Below are positions 53,643 through 62,834 of a stretch of 64,000 nucleotides of DNA, in pieces. Origin of the DNA: Emticicia sp. (lineage in GTDB: Bacteria > Bacteroidota > Bacteroidia > Cytophagales > Spirosomataceae). The notes beneath the pieces were generated by a model, which saw nothing but the letters and a program-made list of their open reading frames with translations, ran no database searches and was not told the DNA's origin. Each line of letters begins with the position of its first letter. The first letter of the stretch is position 1. The position numbers and the translations under genes are program-made. Location: NCBI RefSeq assembly GCF_043780375.1, contig NZ_JAYWCU010000173.1:548-64547 (forward strand), read 5' to 3'.

Positions 53643-54716
53643 CTATACAAATTCCTTACCTTTTGTAGTTGCCGTTGCCACAAATTCTTTAACTTTTTGC
53701 TCGTCTTCTTTCTTACAAATCATCAAAACATTATCAAACTCGGCAACGATATAGCCATCTAAACCTTTTACAACCACCAATCTATCTTTTGGGGTCTTGA
53801 TGATACAATTTTTAGTGTCATAAATCATCATATTGCCATCAAGAACATTTTGATTTTCGTCTTTTTCTGAAACTTCATACAATGATTTCCATGTACCTAA
53901 ATCTGACCATCCAATTTCAGAAAGCACCACATACACATTTTCGGCTCTTTCCATTACACCATTATCAATCGAAATGTTTTTGCATTGCGGATAGGCTCTA
54001 TTCAAAGCATCGGCTTCTCTGTCAGTATAAAAATCGCCCTTAATCTCTTCAAAAGCCTCGGCCATTTCGGGCAAAAATGCTTCAAAACATTTCTTTATAG
54101 TATTTATATTCCAAATAAAAATGCCTGCATTCCACACAAATTCACCACTTTCAACAAACTTTACAGCCCAATCGGCAGTTGGTTTTTCGGTAAAAGTTTG
54201 AACTCGTTTAATATCACCTTCCGATTCTGTAAACTGAATATAGCCATAACCAGTATCAGGGCGTGTTGGCTTAATACCAAGTGTAACGAGTACATCATTT
54301 TTTGCTGAAAAATGCAACGCTGTATTGATTCTTGCACGAAACTCTTCTTCTTTCAAAATAATATGGTCAGCAGGAGCAACCACAATATTGGCATTGGGGT
54401 TTTGAGCTGCAATTTTATAGCAAGCATAACCAATACACGGTGCTGTATTTCGACGGTTAGGTTCAAGCAAAATTTGGTCATCGCTGAGATATGGCAATTG
54501 TTGTTTCGTTATCTCATAATATTCCTTACTTGTAACAATATAAATATTTTCTTTGGGGCAAACACCTTCAAAACGCTCAACAGTCTGTTGAATCATTGTT
54601 TTCCCGATACCCAAAACATCATGAAATTGCTTAGGATTTGTACTACGACTAAAGGGCCAAAACCTTGTTCCGACTCCCCCTGCCATTATTATTACGTAAT
54701 TGTTATTTATCATCAC
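53643..54716 (-). CDS. manC: Mannose-1-phosphate guanylyltransferase
   Basis: IMAGGVGTRFWP.SR, EP.RRNTAP, PADH, TGYGYI, FTEKP, WNAGIF, SIDNGVME, WSDLG. Confidence 0.95.
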   Translation of the reverse strand: MMINNNYVIIMAGGVGTRFWPFSRSTNPKQFHDVLGIGKTMIQQTVERFEGVCPKENIYIVTSKEYYEITKQQLPYLSDDQILLEPNRRNTAPCIGYACYKIAAQNPNANIVVAPADHIILKEEEFRARINTALHFSAKNDVLVTLGIKPTRPDTGYGYIQFTESEGDIKRVQTFTEKPTADWAVKFVESGEFVWNAGIFIWNINTIKKCFEAFLPEMAEAFEEIKGDFYTDREADALNRAYPQCKNISIDNGVMERAENVYVVLSEIGWSDLGTWKSLYEVSEKDENQNVLDGNMMIYDTKNCIIKTPKDRLVVVKGLDGYIVAEFDNVLMICKKEDEQKVKEFVATATTKGKEFV

Positions 54717-54738: not shown

Positions 54739-55779
54739 TCACTGTTTCAAATAGTTTTCTAAACGTAAAGCTACGTTTTCTCTAATATTCATCCAAAAAA
54801 GATTTATATCAGCAACATGCCAAACTTTTGTCTTCAAAAAAGCCCTGCCTCGTACATAAGGTTTATTAATCCACAACATTCCTTGATGGCTTTGTGCATC
54901 GGCAGCTTGTTTCACAAAAGTATATTTAAGTCCAACCCCGCCTTTGTTTAGTTCTTTCGATGCAAAATCTTCATTGCATTTCCATGTGAGTGGATTAGTG
55001 CAAACGGCTGTACTTAGTCCATTTTTATAATATTCTGGCGTAAAATTTCGGGCAAATGTATTCCAAGAAACAAAACCACCTATCTCCTCCGCCGATTGAC
55101 TTGGTTTTATATTCTCGAAAGTATCAGGTTGAGTAGCAATTCCAATTAAATAGGCTTCTACCAATTGCTTTTGTAGTGGTTTTCCATCAAAATATTCTTT
55201 TAACAGACGTTTGGCATGCACTGTTCCCTGACTATGCGAAGCAATTATAATAGGACGACCTTGGTTCCAATTTTTCAAATAATATTCAAATGCTGCTTTG
55301 ATATCAGAATACGCCAAATCTAATGCCTGTTTTTTATCCTCAGCATTGGGTGTAAGAAAACTATAATAATGTGCTTGTCGGTAGCGAGGAGCATAAATTT
55401 TGCACGAACCATTAAACGCTGATGCCTGATTCAAAATCGTTGAGTTATCGGTTTTTTCATTCAATTCTGCATCTTCTACATTTGCATTCCATAAGTATTG
55501 ATTTTTAGGTTCATAAGTAAATGTTGTTGGATGTAGAAAAAAAACATCTGCTTTTGCATCGCTTTGTTTTTCTATGATATTCGATTTCAAAGGAGTTTTA
55601 TCTGCCCTATCTTCTTTGGTTGGCAATGCTGCCCAAGCTTCACTCTGCGTATAATCAGGTACTTTTGGAACGTTGGATTGGTCAAAATGAGTTTTAAGAA
55701 TAACCGAATTTTGAGCATTCCCATTTAACGAAAAAAATGCTACTAAAGAAAAAATTGATAGAAAAATCGTCTTTCGCAT
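54739..55779 (-). CDS. DUF3089-like alpha/beta hydrolase, secreted
   Basis: PDY...WAALP, DVFFLHPTT, IYAPRYRQA, GRPIIIASHSQG nucleophile elbow, CTNPLTW, WHVAD. Confidence 0.85.
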   Translation of the reverse strand: MRKTIFLSIFSLVAFFSLNGNAQNSVILKTHFDQSNVPKVPDYTQSEAWAALPTKEDRADKTPLKSNIIEKQSDAKADVFFLHPTTFTYEPKNQYLWNANVEDAELNEKTDNSTILNQASAFNGSCKIYAPRYRQAHYYSFLTPNAEDKKQALDLAYSDIKAAFEYYLKNWNQGRPIIIASHSQGTVHAKRLLKEYFDGKPLQKQLVEAYLIGIATQPDTFENIKPSQSAEEIGGFVSWNTFARNFTPEYYKNGLSTAVCTNPLTWKCNEDFASKELNKGGVGLKYTFVKQAADAQSHQGMLWINKPYVRGRAFLKTKVWHVADINLFWMNIRENVALRLENYLKQ

Positions 55780-55826: not shown

Positions 55827-55854
55827 AATAATAGTATGCTTGCATATTATTATT
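55827..55854. promoter_or_regulatory. Palindromic operator candidate in the divergent hydrolase/TBDR promoter region
   Basis: aataatagtatgc-tt-gcatattattatt, 12 of 13 positions complementary. Confidence 0.5.
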
Positions 55855-55862
55855 TTCTTTTC

Positions 55863-55870
55863 TAAGTTTG
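55863..55870 (+). promoter_or_regulatory. -7 promoter element of the TBDR gene
   Basis: TAAGTTTG, 41 nt before the ATG at 55912. Confidence 0.6.
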
Positions 55871-55911
55871 ACACAAAATTACGTTTTGTTAACCCACTAA
55901 CCAATATTCTT

Positions 55912-58900
55912 ATGTACAAACTTTCCGTAAAAAAATGTTTGCTTGGAATTTGCTGCTTACTTATTACTCAGCTTTCCTTTGCTCAAACAAAAGTGTCTGG
56001 AACGATTACTGACGCATCAACTAAAGAGCCACTAATCGGTGTTAGTGTTCAAGTAAAAGGCAAGGTCGTAGGAACTATCACCAACACTAAGGGTGAGTTT
56101 TCATTTAGTGTATCATCGGCACCGCCATTCACACTTATAATATCTTCTGTAGGATACGAAAGTCAAGAAATGGTAGTTTCTGGAAATAACGCCTCTATCA
56201 ATATTTCGTTGAAAGAACAAGCAGTTTTAGGACAAGAAGTAGTTGTTTCTGCCTCAAGGGTTGAAGAATCTGTCTTGAAATCGCCTGCGGCAATTGAGAA
56301 AATGGACATTCGTACTATTCGTGAAACGGCTTCTCCATCGTTTTATGATGCTCTTGCCAACATGAAAGGCATCGACATGACTACTCAAGGTTTATTATTC
56401 AAATCAATCAATATGCGTGGATTTGGTTCTACTGGTAATCCTCGTACAGTTCAGATGATTGATGGAATGGATAACCAAGCTCCTGGTCTAAATTTTCCAG
56501 TTGATAATATCGTTGGTATGCCTGAATTAGACGTTGAGAGTGTGGAGGTTTTGCCAGGAGCAGCATCTGCTCTTTATGGACCAAATGCCATCAATGGCTT
56601 GATTTTGATGAATAGCAAAAGCCCATTCTTGTATCAAGGTTTGAGTGCAACGTTGAAAACTGGCGTAATGAGTGCCAGCAACAGAACCGAGCCTACAACG
56701 CCAATGGCAGATTTCTCGATGCGTTATGCAAAAGCATCTAAGAACAATAAATTTGCTTTCAAAATAAACTTGGCTTACATCACAGCTAAAGATTGGCAAG
56801 CGACTGACTACTCAAATCTGAATTTGGGTGGCATACAAAATGGTACAAGAGGTGCAGGTGTAAAAAACGATTATGACGGAATGAACGTTTATGGCGATGA
56901 AGTTCAAGCCAATATGACTACCGTTGCAAATGGACTAATTGCCGCTAAACTTTTACCGTCAGCAGCATTGGGATTGATTCCAAGTGCCAATGTTAGTAGA
57001 ACGGGCTTCTTAGAAAAAGACATGGTTGATTATAATACCAAGAGTTTTAAGACTAATTTGGCTGCCCATTATCGTATAAATGATAAAGTAGAATTAGTAG
57101 GACAACTTAATTATGGATATGGAACAACTGTTTATACAGGAACAGGTCGATATTCGTTAAGAAACTTTAACTTGACACAAGCTAAAGTAGAATTGAGAGG
57201 CGATAACTTTACTTTAAGAGCATATACAACACAAGAAAGGTCGGGACAATCATACACTGCTGGTTTAGCTGCCGTAGCAATGTTGAACAGTATAAAGCCT
57301 CATGCTAATTGGTTTGGCGAATATGTAGGAGCATTTGCAGCAGCACGAGGTGCAGGACAAGCAGAAGACGCAGCCCACTTGACAGCAAGAGGCGTGGCAG
57401 ACAAAGGAATGCCGACACCAGGAACTTCAGAATATACTACGCTATTAAACAAATTTCGTGATGCAGCCATTGTAGATGGTGGCGGTGGTTTCTTGGATAA
57501 AACAAATATGTATCATGCAGAAGGTGTCTATAATTTCAAGAATCAAATCAAATTTATTGATTTATTGGGTGGAGCAAACGTGCGTCAATATCAATTAGCA
57601 TCTAACGGAACGTTATTTGCCGATAAAAAAGAAGGTCGTACAGGCAATATTCCGATTAATGAATACGGTGCGTTTTTGCAAGCTGCCAAAAGTTTGTTTA
57701 GCGACCACTTGAAATTATCTGCTTCGATTCGTTATGATAAAAGCCAAAATTTTGAAGGATTTTTCACACCACGTTTTTCAGCAGTAGCAACATTCGGACA
57801 ACAAAACTTCCGTGTTTCATATCAAACAGGTTATCGTATTCCAACGACTCAAAACCAATACATTGATTTGAAAACTCCTGCAGGAACTCTGATTGGTGGA
57901 CAACCCGAATTCGATGCTAGATATAATTTAGCAAGTGGTATCTCTTTAGCAACATTAACTGATTTTTCAAAAAATCCAACAAAATATATCACTGCAGATG
58001 TAATAGCCAAAGCACAAGCTTATGCAACGGCAGCCGTAACAGCACAAGCAACTCCCGCAATTACGGCTGGTGTAACTGCTGCAATTACTCAACAAGTAAC
58101 AGCAGGGGTAACTGCTGCAATTACTCAACAAGTAACAGCAGGGGTAACTGCCGCAATTACTCAACAAGTAACAGCAGGGGTAACGTCAGTAATCACACAA
58201 CAAGTAACAGCAGGGGTAACAGCTCAAGTAAATGCAGCAGTTGCAGCAGGACAGATTGCAGCAGCAGCAGCAGCAGCAGCTATTCAAGCAGGTGTTGCAA
58301 GTACTTTACCAGCGGCATTAGCAACCAATTTAGCCCCAGGTGTTGCAGGTGCTCTACCAGCGGCATTAGCAACCAACTTAGCCCCCGGTGTTGCAGCAAC
58401 TTTGCCAGGTGCTCTTGCAGCAAATTTTCAACCCGCATTTAATGCAGAGTTAGCAAAAGCACTTGCTGCCAACGTTCCAGCAGTTACGGCACAAGTAGCT
58501 CCTGCCTATGGGTTAGCAGCATTGCCTAAATATAAGGCTACAGCATTAGTACCAGAAAAAATAGAATCGTATGAAATTGGTTATAAAGGCCTAATTGCCA
58601 AAAAACTATTTGTTGATTCATATTTCTATACAAGTAAATATACCAACTTTATTGGTGGAACCTCTATTATTGTTCCAATAGCTGCCGCAGGCCCAGGCTT
58701 ACCTATCGAATCTGGTGCTGGTGGTGCTTCAACTCGTTTGGGTTATTCTCGCCCATCAAACACAAAAGAAAAAATCACAGCTAATGGCTTTGCCATTAGT
58801 GCTAATTATTCATTGTCAAAAGGATTTAATGTGGGTGTGAATTTTGCACAAAATAATCTTAAAGGTTTTACAGCAAGTCCAGAGCAGCAATTTGCAGGTT

Positions 58901-59244
58901 ATAACACACCAAAAAATCGCTATAATATTAGCTTTGGAAAACGCTTGAATAGCGGTGATAAATTTGGATTTAATGTAAACCTAAGACACCAAGATGCCTA
59001 TTTGTGGGAAGCAAGTTTCAACCAACCAACTACATCAGGTATCGGTTTCTTTAGTAACACTACTGTGCCAAAAGTCACCACTTTCGATGCACAAGTAAGT
59101 TATAAGCTATCTGCTATGAAAACTATCATCAAAATTGGTGGTACAAACATTGGTGGCAAACCATACATTCAAGCATTTGGTAGTGCAGCAGTTGGCACAA
59201 TGTACTATGTAGCCCTCACTTTCGACCAATTATTGAATAAATAA
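55912..59244 (+). CDS. TonB-dependent receptor with a large Ala-rich loop insertion
   Basis: N-terminal extension (VSGTITD...EPLIGVSV), plug (VVSASR, GPNAINGLI), barrel strands, GYRIPT...PEKIESYEIGY. Start moved to the ATG at 55912. Confidence 0.92.
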   Translation: MYKLSVKKCLLGICCLLITQLSFAQTKVSGTITDASTKEPLIGVSVQVKGKVVGTITNTKGEFSFSVSSAPPFTLIISSVGYESQEMVVSGNNASINISLKEQAVLGQEVVVSASRVEESVLKSPAAIEKMDIRTIRETASPSFYDALANMKGIDMTTQGLLFKSINMRGFGSTGNPRTVQMIDGMDNQAPGLNFPVDNIVGMPELDVESVEVLPGAASALYGPNAINGLILMNSKSPFLYQGLSATLKTGVMSASNRTEPTTPMADFSMRYAKASKNNKFAFKINLAYITAKDWQATDYSNLNLGGIQNGTRGAGVKNDYDGMNVYGDEVQANMTTVANGLIAAKLLPSAALGLIPSANVSRTGFLEKDMVDYNTKSFKTNLAAHYRINDKVELVGQLNYGYGTTVYTGTGRYSLRNFNLTQAKVELRGDNFTLRAYTTQERSGQSYTAGLAAVAMLNSIKPHANWFGEYVGAFAAARGAGQAEDAAHLTARGVADKGMPTPGTSEYTTLLNKFRDAAIVDGGGGFLDKTNMYHAEGVYNFKNQIKFIDLLGGANVRQYQLASNGTLFADKKEGRTGNIPINEYGAFLQAAKSLFSDHLKLSASIRYDKSQNFEGFFTPRFSAVATFGQQNFRVSYQTGYRIPTTQNQYIDLKTPAGTLIGGQPEFDARYNLASGISLATLTDFSKNPTKYITADVIAKAQAYATAAVTAQATPAITAGVTAAITQQVTAGVTAAITQQVTAGVTAAITQQVTAGVTSVITQQVTAGVTAQVNAAVAAGQIAAAAAAAAIQAGVASTLPAALATNLAPGVAGALPAALATNLAPGVAATLPGALAANFQPAFNAELAKALAANVPAVTAQVAPAYGLAALPKYKATALVPEKIESYEIGYKGLIAKKLFVDSYFYTSKYTNFIGGTSIIVPIAAAGPGLPIESGAGGASTRLGYSRPSNTKEKITANGFAISANYSLSKGFNVGVNFAQNNLKGFTASPEQQFAGYNTPKNRYNISFGKRLNSGDKFGFNVNLRHQDAYLWEASFNQPTTSGIGFFSNTTVPKVTTFDAQVSYKLSAMKTIIKIGGTNIGGKPYIQAFGSAAVGTMYYVALTFDQLLNK
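58081..58224 (+). repeat. In-frame 36-bp tandem repeat, 4 copies (AITQQVTAGVTA)
   Basis: gcaattactcaacaagtaacagcaggggtaactgct at 58081, 58117, 58153 and a diverged copy at 58189. Confidence 0.95.
58258..58281 (+). repeat. (GCA)7-GCT poly-alanine microsatellite
   Basis: Encodes 8 consecutive alanines. Confidence 0.95.
58291..58434 (+). repeat. In-frame 48-bp tandem repeat, 3 copies (GVAxxLPxALAxNxxP)
   Basis: Units start at 58291, 58339 and 58387. Confidence 0.9.
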
Positions 59245-60806: not shown

Positions 60807-60838
60807 ACGCCTCGACTGTAACCGTTGAGGCGTTTTTT
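60807..60838 (+). terminator. Terminator after icd
   Basis: acgcctcgac / gttgaggcgt stem followed by a T run. Confidence 0.8.
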
Positions 60839-60849
60839 ATTGTATTTCT

Positions 60850-60865
60850 GTGGTACGAAGTTTGC
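60850..60865 (+). promoter_or_regulatory. Canonical sigma-54 site before the T9SS cargo gene
   Basis: GTGGTACGAAGTTTGC (GG-N10-GC), directly after the icd terminator. Confidence 0.6.
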
Positions 60866-60959
60866 TGTTTTTGATTACTATAACTTATTTTACACAAGTC
60901 GGAAGGGCTTAGCGTTACATATAGTGATAATAAAATTGTCGTTCATTCCTAATTACCCA

Positions 60960-62834
60960 ATGAAATCTATATTAATAATCATATTTACAACTTTCTCTTC
61001 ATTATTGTTTGCCCAAAACTTAGCCATTCACTGGCAAAATAGCTTAGGTGGAAAAAACGACGAATTTGCTTATGCCTCAACACCTACGTCCGATGGCGGC
61101 TATGTGATTGTAGGCTCTACCAACAATAATAAAGATGGAGATGTTCTCACCTCAAAAGCATTTAGCGGTGCTGGTGGAAGCGATATTTGGGTTGTAAAAT
61201 TGAATAATTGGGGTGAAATTGTTTGGTCAAAAACATTTGGCGGAACAAAAGATGATATCGCCACTGATGTTTTAGAAACAAAAGATAAAGCAATCTTAAT
61301 TGTAGCCACTACCAACTCAACCGATGGAGAAGCCGTAGGTAATGGCTCTCGTGGAGGACTAATTCTACTTAAACTAAAAACCGATGGCTCAATAGAATGG
61401 CGAAAAGTTTTTGCCAGTGGTTATAATGCAGGCGAAATCGCCTTTGCAACAGCCGACGCAAACTCAAAACCCACAATCAAACCAACTGCCGATGGTGGCT
61501 ATATGCTCGGAGCAACCATCACCCCAATCAATACCTCAGATTTTTGGTTGTCAAAACTCAACGCCGATGGCAATATTCAATGGACTAAAACCTATGGAAG
61601 TACCCAAGATGATTGGATGAATGAAGTAATTTTATGCTCAGATGGTGGCTTTTTAATGGTTGGTGGCACAGAAGCAACCAACTCAGAAGTTTCGGGAGCA
61701 GGAAAAGGTTTTATAGATTTTTATACTATAAAAACTAATGCAAGTGGCAGTGTTTTATGGCAAAAAGCATTGGGTGGCACCAACTTAGACATTGCTTTCT
61801 CGGCAATCGAAACTGCTGATAATGCCTACATTATTGTTGGAGAAACAAACTCAAGTAATGGCGATATGAGTAGTAATTTAGGTCAAAAAGATGGGTTTTT
61901 AGTGAAAATTGCAAGCAATGGACAAGTATTGTGGAAAACATTGACTGGCGGAACAGACATTGATGGACTTTATACTATCAAAAAAACAAGTGATGGAAAA
62001 CTATTTGCAATGGGCATTAGTAGCTCCGATATTGGCAAAGTAAGACCTAAAGGCCCAGTAGGTGATATGTGGTTGGTAAATATCGAAACATCGGGCTTAA
62101 TAAGTAGCCATACAATGTTTGGTGGAGCCGATTCTGACATTGCTCGTGGTGCTTTTCCAACAAGTGATGGGGGTTTTATCATTGCAGGGAATTCTGACTC
62201 TGTTGATGGTGATTTGACAGAAAATAAAGGAGGCACCGATTTTTGGGCAGTTAAGATTGGAAGTCCATTAGCTGTACAAATGAAAGATTTTTCGGCAAGT
62301 TTAACTTCCGAACAATATGTAAAACTCACTTGGGAATCTACTGCCGAAACTCGTTCTAAAAACTTTGTTGTTGAGCGAAGCATTGATGCCATAAAATTTA
62401 CTTCATTGGGTCAAGTGGCGGCTTCTGTTACTTCCACAACAAAAAAAGCCTATTCATTCACTGATCAAAAACCTATTTTTGGAGAGAATTATTACCGACT
62501 AAAATTTTATGACGATGCAGGAAAAGAGTTTACTTATAAAACCTTAACTGTAAGCATTTCGATTCTGGCTTCTGAACCTCAAATTGAGAAAAAAACTTTG
62601 ATAGTTTTTCCAAATCCTCTCGAAAACAATTATTTTTTTATCAAAACCACTCATGCTTTACCTAAAAGCATGCAACTCTTCAATTTAATCGGACTCCATA
62701 TTCCGATAGAAATTCAAACGGTAGGCAACAATCAAGCTCAGATTTTTTTGAAAAATACACTTGATGCTGGCATCTATTTTCTTCTCTTAGATTCGGGCGA
62801 AAGCAAAATTATTGAAAAAATTATAGTTCGATAA
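60960..62834 (+). CDS. T9SS type-A CTD cargo protein with propeller-like W.K..GG...D repeats and an Ig-like domain
   Basis: Repeated WxKxxGG...D and T.DGG motifs, PLAVQMKDF...LTWE...NFVVERS Ig domain, VFPNP CTD. Start moved to the ATG at 60960. Confidence 0.85.
   Translation: MKSILIIIFTTFSSLLFAQNLAIHWQNSLGGKNDEFAYASTPTSDGGYVIVGSTNNNKDGDVLTSKAFSGAGGSDIWVVKLNNWGEIVWSKTFGGTKDDIATDVLETKDKAILIVATTNSTDGEAVGNGSRGGLILLKLKTDGSIEWRKVFASGYNAGEIAFATADANSKPTIKPTADGGYMLGATITPINTSDFWLSKLNADGNIQWTKTYGSTQDDWMNEVILCSDGGFLMVGGTEATNSEVSGAGKGFIDFYTIKTNASGSVLWQKALGGTNLDIAFSAIETADNAYIIVGETNSSNGDMSSNLGQKDGFLVKIASNGQVLWKTLTGGTDIDGLYTIKKTSDGKLFAMGISSSDIGKVRPKGPVGDMWLVNIETSGLISSHTMFGGADSDIARGAFPTSDGGFIIAGNSDSVDGDLTENKGGTDFWAVKIGSPLAVQMKDFSASLTSEQYVKLTWESTAETRSKNFVVERSIDAIKFTSLGQVAASVTSTTKKAYSFTDQKPIFGENYYRLKFYDDAGKEFTYKTLTVSISILASEPQIEKKTLIVFPNPLENNYFFIKTTHALPKSMQLFNLIGLHIPIEIQTVGNNQAQIFLKNTLDAGIYFLLLDSGESKIIEKIIVR

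What the first reader, a model, noticed from the sequence alone, without database searches (positions are those of the whole stretch)
58012..58446. TonB-dependent receptor with a 145-residue uncharged, repeat-built helical insert of strict 4-residue periodicity
Seen in sequence: between the barrel motifs GYRIPT and PEKIESYEIGY there are 145 consecutive codons (58012-58446) with no D, E, K or R. The stretch is built from four 36-bp repeats, (GCA)7 and three 48-bp repeats. Within the 12-aa and 16-aa units, large hydrophobic residues fall on every 4th position (ITQQ-VTAG-VTAA; VAST-LPAA-LATN-LAPG), and Thr follows the same period in the 12-aa units. The near-identical copies point to recent slippage expansion, so loop length may vary between strains. 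Established: this position corresponds to an extracellular loop in TBDR topology, and a 4-residue stripe winds right-handed around an alpha-helix rather than fitting a heptad coiled coil. Inference: a surface-exposed helical antenna that inserts into or scans lipid surfaces (droplets, membranes, waxes), or alternatively an Ala/Thr-rich adhesive or ice-binding element, attached to an active importer.
Basis: partly seen in the sequence, partly recalled or inferred. Interest (0 to 1): 0.78.

Follow-up and report, generated by a model that had tools for sequence, protein, structure and literature searches.

The report
Hypervariable helical spike on an outer-membrane transporter
A conserved outer-membrane nutrient transporter of freshwater Emticicia and related bacteria carries a very long, charge-free, repeat-built two-helix hairpin in what is probably a surface loop, and this hairpin alone is swapped and resized between otherwise identical strains, as exposed targets of phages or toxins often are.

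Summary
Codons 58012-58446 are a 145-residue run with no D, E, K or R, with a strict 4-residue period, built from 36-bp, GCA and 48-bp repeats. It lies inside a CarboxypepD_reg + Plug + barrel TonB-dependent receptor (55912-59244, +) of an Emticicia-like bacterium.

AlphaFold2 models two alleles as a helix-turn-helix hairpin of about 13-14 nm, with the turn at a conserved AAGQ motif. Strand parity places it in an extracellular loop, nominally L7.

- **Paired arms.** In 160 distinct orthologue hairpins the arm lengths covary (r 0.98; independent contrasts 0.90). One 12-aa N-arm unit is added per 16/17-aa C-arm unit.
- **Helix signature.** Opposite charges concentrate at i+3 and i+4.
- **Cassette behaviour.** Genes with identical plug and barrel carry very different hairpins (loop dS 0.67 against 0.012 elsewhere), which indicates recombining old alleles.
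- **Assembly.** The window allele (76,84) is off-series. Unitig depths in four runs indicate one collapsed 48-bp unit, so the true allele is probably (76,100).

No lipid- or ice-binding evidence was found. The function is inferred: an exposed spike or capture arm under diversifying pressure. This is a new variant of a known kind.

The parts
55912..59244 (+). TonB-dependent receptor gene (1110 aa plus stop). The likely true start is the ATG at 55912; the mechanical ORF starts at a TTG at 55840.
   Evidence: ORF list. The N-terminus matches the orthologue consensus MxKLxxKKxLLGI..FAQTKVSG. Pfam hits. Foldseek TBDR fold.
55912..55986 (+). Predicted signal peptide MYKLSVKKCLLGICCLLITQLSFAQ.
   Evidence: Read from the sequence. 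AF2 models residues 2-23 as a helix ahead of the first domain. The cleavage site is inferred.
55993..56247 (+). N-terminal CarboxypepD_reg-like domain (aa 28-112).
   Evidence: Pfam PF13715, E 1.2e-21.
56275..56598 (+). Plug domain (aa 122-229), preceded by a TonB-box-like QEVVVSA.
   Evidence: Pfam PF07715, E 5.5e-15. The TonB box is read from the sequence and inferred.
57838..58554 (+). Whole long loop between predicted barrel strands 13 and 14 (aa 643-881), nominally extracellular loop L7.
   Evidence: AF2 DSSP strands E631-642 and E882-895. The connection has the same parity as the other long connections (293-375, 443-530).
57994..58245 (+). N-arm helix of the hairpin (aa 695-778). It is built of (V/I)-T-x-x tetrads and 12-aa units VTAAITQQVTAG.
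   Evidence: AF2 H695-756 and H758-778. Tetrad composition.
58246..58260 (+). Hairpin turn (aa 779-783, AGQIA; G780 is invariant in the family).
   Evidence: AF2 puts the turn here in the window allele and at the same motif in P0057. G780 is invariant and its neighbours are over 90% conserved.
58261..58518 (+). C-arm helix (aa 784-869). It contains the Ala run and then 16-aa units VAxxLPxALATNLAPG with two Pro per unit.
   Evidence: AF2 H784-869. Repeats.
58012..58446 (+). The 145-codon run without D, E, K or R (the finding as given).
58072..58224 (+). 36-bp tandem repeat, 4.2 copies (N-arm units).
   Evidence: Unitig depths are consistent with this copy number.
58258..58280 (+). (GCA)7.7 run encoding the Ala run just after the tip.
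58289..58432 (+). Three 48-bp units (C-arm; third copy diverged). The window probably lacks a fourth unit, which would lie after 58354-58384.

Best explanation
The feature is a clade-specific elaboration of one long, probably extracellular, loop of a conserved, SusD-less TonB-dependent receptor of Emticicia and the wider Spirosomataceae. By strand count it is L7. It is a rod-like antiparallel alpha-helical hairpin. In the window allele each arm is about 84-86 residues, or about 13 nm; in other alleles the arms reach about 96 and 117 residues. The two arms are made of different tandem repeats: 12-aa (V/I)T-rich units going up, and 16- or 17-aa Pro-punctuated L/A-rich units coming down. These units must be present in equal numbers, and they flank a conserved tip, VNAAVAAGQ(I/L)P..AAAAIQ. 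All repeat units are multiples of three bases, so slippage changes length and never the reading frame. The hairpin is the one hypervariable part of the gene. Old, diverged hairpin alleles of different lengths are moved by homologous recombination between otherwise near-identical genes. Inferred function: the hairpin projects beyond the lipopolysaccharide or polysaccharide layer as the most exposed part of the transporter. It probably acts as a capture or lid arm, since L7 is a ligand-closing loop in studied receptors. Because it is exposed, it is kept polymorphic by agents that dock on it, such as phages, bacteriocin-like toxins or grazers. Shown here: the sequence anatomy, the arm coupling, the helix signature and the mosaic divergence. 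Inferred: surface exposure, the rod geometry, and above all the selective agent and the transport role.
For: - TBDR identity.
- Helical hairpin with the turn at the invariant Gly in two alleles of different length: H695-778 / 779-783 / H784-869; pLDDT 85-90 at the base, 56-72 in the repeats; P0057: H659-754 / 755-759 / H760-876.
- Arm coupling over 160 distinct hairpin sequences: r 0.98, slope 1.2. The main series is (40,52), (52,68), (64,84/86), (76,100), (88,116). Phylogenetically independent contrasts give r 0.90, and most of the 26 differing sister pairs change both arms in the same direction.
- Alpha-helix signature: opposite charges at i+3 and i+4 number 136 and 84, against about 18 expected from shuffles. 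As distinct sequence contexts these are 77 and 49, against 3-23 at other spacings. Charges in N-arm units fall at tetrad position 3, opposite the V/I stripe (ITKQVTDGV).
- Conserved tip.
- Clade specificity: of the 150 best cluster representatives of the wider family (549 clusters at E<1e-30), most of those that could be anchored have only 20-70 aa at this position.
- Hypervariability: pairs that are 100% identical in plug and barrel differ only in this loop. At DNA level the background is 0-1 mismatch per 100 nt, against 19-32 per 100 nt plus indels across about 350 nt. Loop dS is 0.67 and 0.57 against 0.012 and 0.050 in the rest of the gene, with loop dN/dS 0.2-0.36. Short (39,49) and long (64,86) allele classes reassort among backgrounds that differ by less than 1%.
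- The window's off-series allele is explained by a collapsed repeat.
Against: - AF2 confidence in the repeat part is only 53-72. The MSA is shallow (58 sequences at 62% identity or more to the modelled protein), the plug is badly modelled, and I could not inspect coordinates.
- A 4.0-residue stripe and a 12:16 residue ratio do not fit any canonical two-helix coiled coil, so the real geometry may differ from a plain hairpin.
- Half of the N-arm residues are beta-branched, which is unusual for a soluble helix.
- DSSP finds 24 strand segments rather than 22, so the loop number and sidedness rest on parity plus loop-length arguments.
- No phage, toxin or ligand was identified. The hairpin has no match in 50,697 phage records.
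- The transport substrate is unknown.
- Many comparison sequences are metagenome contigs. At least one pair includes an isolate genome (L024), and P0008 was recovered from two independent assemblies.
Confidence: 0.6

Rival explanations
1. The segment is an intrinsically disordered, low-complexity Ala/Thr/Gln/Pro linker that drifts in length by slippage. The helices drawn by AlphaFold are an artefact of Ala richness.
For: The composition is low in complexity (51 Ala, 21 Thr, 16 Val and 14 Gln in 145 residues). pLDDT is 53-72 in the repeats. There is no significant PDB sequence relative.
Against: A strict tetrad pattern, coupled arm lengths, i+3/i+4 charge pairing, a conserved tip and loop dN/dS of 0.2-0.36 all indicate a folded, paired structure under constraint.
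Confidence: 0.1
2. One reading: a helical antenna that inserts into or scans lipid, wax or droplet surfaces, or an ice-binding or adhesive Ala/Thr element.
For: The segment is uncharged and has regular Thr and Ala arrays. A DUF3089 hydrolase-like gene lies next door in 42 of 80 loci. Its length and composition recall the Ala-rich helical-hairpin antifreeze Maxi (from memory).
Against: In a paired hairpin the large hydrophobic residues are buried. The period is 4/12, not 11. Short forms occur in a psychrophilic Dyadobacter and long forms in ordinary freshwater Emticicia. Cassette-like allelic turnover is not expected for a physical-chemistry binder. DUF3089 is not consistently linked.
Confidence: 0.1
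3. Each repeat unit forms one rung of a non-helical (beta-solenoid-like) or otherwise unconventional stack, so that equal unit numbers rather than equal residue numbers set equal height.
For: The 1:1 stoichiometry of units of unequal length (12 against 16 or 17 aa) is naturally explained by rungs. The N-arm is 50% beta-branched. The strongest hydrophobicity harmonic is at period 2. Tenebrio antifreeze protein has 12-residue coils (from memory).
Against: AF2 predicts helices in both alleles. Charge pairing is at i+3 and i+4, not i+2. There is no Cys or other means of stabilising 12-residue coils.
Confidence: 0.1
4. The hairpin points into the periplasm and acts as a spacer or tether towards peptidoglycan, as an Lpp-like rod would.
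For: The DSSP strand count is 24 rather than 22, so parity is not proven. Rod lengths of 6-17 nm are in the range of periplasmic spacers. Bacteroidota lack Lpp (from memory).
Against: All even-to-odd connections before the hairpin are 2-8 residues long. The three long connections before and at the hairpin (81, 86 and 239 aa) share one parity, as extracellular loops do in solved receptors. Extreme allelic diversity confined to this loop is typical of exposed epitopes.
Confidence: 0.07
5. The repeats are an assembly artefact.
For: Short-read graphs break at these repeats, and the window seems to have lost one 48-bp unit.
Against: The same repeat families are present in more than 150 independent assemblies, including isolate genomes, with varied copy numbers. 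Unitig depths fit the 36-bp copy number.
Confidence: 0.02

Closest known systems
TonB-dependent receptors with hypervariable surface loops, e.g. Neisseria FetA/FrpB variable region (from memory; FrpB structures appear among the fold hits)
   Same: A 22-strand plug-and-barrel transporter in which one exposed loop is the polymorphic, recombining part of an otherwise conserved gene.
   Different: Here the variable loop is a 60-210-residue repeat-built helical hairpin with matched arms. The organisms are free-living freshwater and soil bacteria, so the selective agent cannot be host antibody.
Streptococcal antigen I/II stalk (Ala-rich A repeats pairing with Pro-rich P repeats; from memory)
   Same: Two different repeat families lie on the ascending and descending limbs. 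They pair unit for unit despite unequal unit lengths and form a long stalk.
   Different: AgI/II pairs an alpha-helix with a polyproline-II helix and carries a globular head. It is a cell-wall-anchored adhesin of Gram-positive bacteria. Here both limbs are predicted to be helical, there are only 2 Pro per 16 aa, and the host is a barrel loop.
Long antiparallel helical hairpins of colicins Ia/E3 and Ala-rich 'alacoil' pairs (from memory; the Cir-colicin Ia complex 2hdi appears)
   Same: A two-helix antiparallel rod of 10-16 nm, with tight packing through small residues.
   Different: Those have heptad-based periods and are highly charged. The colicin rod is on the toxin, not the receptor. The period here is 4.0 and the window allele has no charges.
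Type I antifreeze proteins, including the helical-hairpin Maxi (from memory)
   Same: Ala- and Thr-rich, nearly uncharged long helices. Maxi is a helix-turn-helix of about 14 nm.
   Different: The defining 11-residue T-x3-A-x3-A-x2 period is absent. There is no association with cold habitats. This element is a loop of a membrane transporter.
SusC/RagA-type transporters of Bacteroidota
   Same: N-terminal CarboxypepD_reg domain plus plug and barrel. The best PDB sequence hit is a SusC homologue (8aa4, E 1.7e-16, N-terminal 230 aa only).
   Different: TIGR04056 scores 119 bits against a cut-off of 368. No SusD-like gene is adjacent.
TLP-4 freshwater glycofibril tetrapeptide repeat (PDB 9ikm; PMC11725842)
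   Same: A 4-residue repeat with Thr and Ala, from a freshwater source. It is the only PDB sequence hit of the hairpin with E below 0.1 (E 0.037).
   Different: TLP-4 is an extended chain with a dihydroxyproline in every tetrad and a glycan shell, according to its abstract. The N-arm here has no Pro, and the match is compositional.

Membership tests
TonB-dependent receptor (TBDR/TBDT) | Plug domain | tested here: met
   Pfam PF07715, E 5.5e-15, 56 bits against a cut-off of 23.9.
TonB-dependent receptor (TBDR/TBDT) | 22-strand beta-barrel fold | tested here: met
   Foldseek of the AF2 model hits PfeA, Cir, BtuB and FepA with E 1e-15 to 1e-11 and probability 1.0. DSSP gives 24 strand segments, so the exact count is unresolved.
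TonB-dependent receptor (TBDR/TBDT) | TonB box ahead of the plug and energy-dependent transport | not testable with these tools
   QEVVVSA at aa 108-114 resembles Bacteroidota TonB boxes (read from the sequence).
SusC/RagA subfamily | Score above the TIGR04056 cut-off | tested here: not met
   119 bits against a cut-off of 368. The signature TIGR04057 scores 23.5 against 46.2.
SusC/RagA subfamily | Adjacent SusD-like lipoprotein gene | tested here: not met
   The neighbours are DUF3089 and ManC upstream (divergent) and isocitrate dehydrogenase downstream.
Canonical (heptad or hendecad) coiled coil / alacoil | Hydrophobic or Ala period of 3.5 or 3.67 residues | tested here: not met
   Spectral peaks lie at 4.0 (N-arm) and 3.9-4.0 (C-arm), and position 1 of the tetrad is strictly occupied.
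Type I antifreeze protein | 11-residue Thr/Ala periodicity | tested here: not met
   Thr recurs every 4 residues in 12-aa units. Ice binding was not assayed.
Antigen I/II-type alpha/PPII stalk | Pro-rich limb able to form a polyproline-II helix | tested here: not met
   The C-arm has 2 Pro per 16 aa and is predicted to be helical.
Bacteroidota general O-glycosylation targets | D-(S/T)-(A/I/L/V/M/T) sequon (motif from memory) | tested here: not met
   No sequon occurs in 18,211 hairpin residues of 160 orthologues.
Contingency (phase-variable) locus | Repeat changes that switch the reading frame or promoter on and off | tested here: not met
   Units are 36, 3 and 48 bp, all multiples of three and inside the ORF. 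Only length changes.

The most novel reading that the evidence does not exclude
The hairpin may be a previously undescribed structural repeat class: an asymmetric two-limb rod. One limb is a 12-residue-unit helix with a 4.0-residue stripe. It is paired unit for unit with a 16/17-residue Pro-segmented limb. A winding limb with a 54 A pitch and a 7.6 A axis distance would give the observed 4:3 residue ratio (my geometry). In this reading the rod serves as a modular, length-tunable surface spike of an outer-membrane transporter. Whole spike cassettes would be exchanged within populations because the spike is the docking site or decoy for phages or protein toxins. That would make it a structural analogue of variable surface antigens, built into a nutrient importer of free-living bacteria.
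Probability: 0.25. Interest if true: 0.8.

Novelty: new variant of a known kind. Interest (0 to 1): 0.6.

Why it matters
TonB-dependent receptors are the main high-affinity importers of Gram-negative bacteria and common entry points for phages and bacteriocins. Their loops are usually short flaps. I found no description of a predicted 13-14 nm rod of this kind in the four literature searches that bore on it, or in PDB sequence space: a rod built from two co-expanding repeat families and exchanged as a cassette between near-clonal genomes.

If the architecture is confirmed, several things follow:
- It would be a natural system for asking how far above the membrane a transporter can reach, and why.
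- It would give a population-genetic marker of enemy pressure in freshwater Cytophagales.
- It would pose a helix-packing problem (period 4.0, 12:16 pairing) of interest to protein designers.

There is also a practical point. Short-read assemblies mis-count these repeats, and this window appears to do so.

Tried and rejected
- **Reads on the 4-unit allele.** I reconstructed the repeat cycle from unitig coordinates and depths on the window instead.
- **Raw reads.** No raw-read runs were available, only Logan contigs.
- **Anchoring the arms.** The first regex anchors for the arms missed 48 of 161 sequences. The second set mis-placed the tip and gave a spurious r of 0.31. I replaced them with best-match anchoring. 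One sequence, P0085, stayed mis-anchored and was excluded.
- **PDB sequence search.** Searching with the hairpin gave only compositional hits: TLP-4, DyP2 and SilC, E 0.04-0.75.
- **Phage search.** tblastn of the hairpin against 50,697 phage records found nothing.
- **Literature.** Searches for Ala-rich or helical-hairpin loops in TonB-dependent transporters, and for hypervariable TBDR phage receptors in Bacteroidetes, found nothing specific.
- **NCBIfam.** It gave no equivalog.
- **O-glycosylation.** Considered as an explanation of the Thr ladder and rejected, because no sequon is present.
- **Diversity-generating retroelement.** Considered and rejected, because the variation includes indels and elevated synonymous change and is not confined to adenine-templated sites.
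- **Phase variation.** Rejected because all units are in frame.
- **Synteny.** It gave no functional clue beyond the weakly linked DUF3089 gene.
- **Not done.** I did not run a second homologue search with the hairpin alone, because orthologues would have filled the 120 listed rows.
Full report
**1. What is in the sequence**

The ORF 55840-59244 (+) most likely starts at the ATG at 55912. That start gives a 1110-aa protein whose N-terminus (MYKLSVKKCLLGICCLLITQLSFAQ/TKVSG) matches the orthologue consensus.

Pfam finds a CarboxypepD_reg-like domain (aa 28-112) and a TonB-dependent receptor Plug domain (aa 122-229). NCBIfam gives only sub-threshold matches to SusC/RagA and other TonB-dependent families. 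An AlphaFold2 model matches solved TonB-dependent receptors (PfeA, Cir, BtuB, FepA) with Foldseek probability 1.0. Homologue names and genome records place the window in Emticicia (Cytophagales).

- There are 145 consecutive codons (58012-58446) without D, E, K or R. The next longest such run in the protein is 23 residues, and nothing comparable occurs elsewhere in the window.
- Tandem Repeats Finder reports 36 bp x4.2 (58072-58224), GCA x7.7 (58258-58280) and 48 bp x2.2 (58289-58396). A third 48-bp copy is diverged.
- The 4-residue period is strict. Tetrad position 1 is V/I in 17 of 18 N-arm tetrads and L/V/F/I in 17 of 18 C-arm tetrads. N-arm position 2 is Thr in 16 of 18.

**2. The window probably under-counts one repeat**

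Contigs of four public metagenome runs match the window with 0-2 mismatches on both sides of the repeats (none in X1 and X2), but the graph breaks inside them.
- The unitig 58355-58396 has about twice the flanking depth.
- An extra 66-nt unitig at single depth maps to 58319-58384 with three mismatches, including 58354 C>T.
- It starts 30 nt before the point where a repeated unit would branch, and it ends where it rejoins.

This is what one extra pass through a 48-bp cycle would produce. Two 98.7%-identical contigs from other assemblies (L001, L002; protein P0001) carry exactly such a fourth unit, with the TTA codon. The conclusion is therefore an inference from graph topology and depth, at roughly 0.75 confidence. 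The repeats themselves are not an artefact. They recur in more than 150 independent assemblies, including isolate genomes.

**3. Structure**

AlphaFold2 with a 58-sequence alignment gives a mediocre overall model (mean pLDDT 67, plug poorly modelled). It draws the insert as helix 695-778, turn 779-783 and helix 784-869. pLDDT is 85-90 at the base and 56-72 further out.

For the orthologue P0057, which has more units, it draws helix 659-754, turn 755-759 and helix 760-876. In both models the turn sits on the family-invariant Gly of VNAAVAAGQ.

Before the hairpin, all even-to-odd strand connections are 2-8 residues long. The long connections there (81, 86 and 239 residues) are all odd-to-even. 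This is the pattern of extracellular loops in solved receptors. By count the insert lies between strands 13 and 14, nominally L7. DSSP lists 24 strand segments rather than 22, so the number and the sidedness remain inferences.

Three results independent of AlphaFold support a paired helical structure.
- **Coupled arm lengths.** I measured N-arm length (Y of AYAT to the invariant G) and C-arm length (G to P of APAY) in 160 distinct orthologue hairpins from the homologue search and 80 genome loci. They are tightly coupled (r 0.98, slope 1.2). The main series is (40,52), (52,68), (64,84 or 86), (76,100), (88,116), so one 12-aa N-arm unit goes with one 16- or 17-aa C-arm unit. Phylogenetically independent contrasts on a tree of the barrel give r 0.90, and most differing sister pairs change both arms in the same direction. 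The window allele (76,84) is an off-series singleton. With the fourth unit restored it becomes (76,100).
- **Charge spacing.** Where orthologues carry charges in the hairpin, opposite charges sit at i+3 and i+4 (136 and 84 pairs against about 18 expected; 77 and 49 distinct contexts). Like charges avoid those spacings.
- **Charge position.** In N-arm units the charges fall at tetrad position 3 (ITKQVTDGV), opposite the V/I stripe, as expected if that stripe is buried.

One thing remains unexplained. A 4.0-residue stripe and a 12:16 residue ratio fit no canonical coiled coil. A C-arm segmented by its two prolines per unit could reconcile them. So could a C-arm winding round a straighter N-arm: a 54 A pitch at a 7.6 A axis distance gives a 4:3 path ratio (my geometry). 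I could not inspect coordinates (note).

**4. Distribution and evolution**

The wider family counts 549 clusters at E<1e-30. Among its 150 best representatives (mostly about 850-1070 aa), most of those that could be anchored have only 20-70 residues at this position. Only the nearest clusters carry an Ala/Thr/Gln hairpin, with minimal forms such as VTQQVQAGQIAPENAPAAIAALV. The hairpin is thus a clade-specific elaboration that grew by internal duplication. The loop between GYRIPT and PEKIESYEIGY ranges from 152 to 307 aa. It is shortest in Arsenicibacter, Telluribacter and Nibrella (152-154 aa), short in Dyadobacter (170 aa), and longest in Emticicia, Lacihabitans and Leadbetterella.

The most striking result is mosaicism.
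- Several protein pairs that are 100% identical over the plug and barrel differ massively in this loop and nowhere else.
- At DNA level, the isolate Emticicia sp. CRIBPO (L024) and an independent contig (L083) differ by 0-1 substitutions per 100 nt over 6.9 kb. Across about 350 nt of the hairpin they differ by 19-32 per 100 nt plus indels. L010 against L084 shows the same pattern.
- Synonymous divergence is 0.67 and 0.57 in the loop against 0.012 and 0.050 in the rest of the gene. Loop dN/dS is 0.2-0.36.
- Short (39,49) and long (64,86) allele classes occur on backgrounds that differ by less than 1%, while each class is nearly identical across backgrounds that differ by 3-10%.

This is not in-situ hypermutation. 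Old, constrained hairpin alleles are being moved by recombination, as in loci under balancing or frequency-dependent selection. All repeat units are multiples of three, so slippage tunes length and does not switch the gene off.

**5. Function**

Nothing here identifies the substrate. No SusD-like partner is adjacent. The neighbours are a divergent DUF3089 hydrolase-like gene (42 of 80 loci), ManC (67 of 80) and, in Emticicia, isocitrate dehydrogenase.

My best-supported reading is a rigid, exposed spike on a lid loop of an active importer. Its conserved tip and matched arms are maintained for a positive role in capture or hand-over of a ligand or partner. Its length and surface are kept polymorphic by enemies that dock on it. 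That last step is inference. I found no phage match and no literature on such a loop.

The hydrophobic stripe is buried in a hairpin. The period is not the antifreeze 11. There is no habitat correlation. The Bacteroidota O-glycosylation sequon is absent from all 18,211 hairpin residues examined. The only PDB sequence hit with E below 0.1, the TLP-4 glycofibril tetrapeptide repeat, is a compositional match that needs a hydroxyproline in each tetrad.

**6. Verdict**

The feature is a new variant of a known kind: a TonB-dependent receptor carrying a repeat-built, arm-matched, recombining helical hairpin in a probably extracellular loop. Confidence in the architecture and the evolutionary pattern is fairly high. 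Confidence in the selective agent and the transport role is low. Interest is about 0.6.

Noticed in passing
window 58289-58396: The window assembly seems to have dropped one 48-bp repeat unit that the read graphs of four runs, and the 98.7%-identical contigs L001 and L002, contain. Repeat counts in short-read assemblies of this gene should not be trusted without long reads.
   Followed up: partly
window 59200-59241: The receptor does not end on the usual C-terminal aromatic residue. A conserved 6-residue tail (FDQLLNK; family consensus FDELLNK) follows the last Phe.
   Followed up: no
window 54739-55779 (-): A secreted DUF3089 (alpha/beta-hydrolase-like) gene is transcribed divergently from the receptor. 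It is conserved at that place in 42 of 80 related loci, and ManC (53643-54716) in 67 of 80.
   Followed up: partly
window 58002-58041: There is a cluster of 10 substitutions in 40 nt against the 98.7%-identical locus L001, with only one amino-acid change (I to L). It lies at the base of the N-arm and may be a small recombination tract.
   Followed up: no
window 60825-62834 (+): A 669-aa repeat-rich protein. The L001 gene at the same position carries a Por_Secre_tail (type IX secretion C-terminal) domain; the window protein is 98.7% identical to that region.
   Followed up: no
L010 vs L084, about 600-800 nt into the alignment (DsbA/ManC boundary): A second short patch of high divergence (13-16 mismatches per 100 nt plus 46 gap columns) between two otherwise near-identical contigs.
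   Followed up: no
P0003, P0005, P0007, P0015 (Emticicia aquatilis-type alleles): A different C-arm repeat family of 17 aa (QQLALPATQAGIQAGVA) replaces the 16-aa unit. It still occurs in step with the 12-aa N-arm units (64,86).
   Followed up: partly
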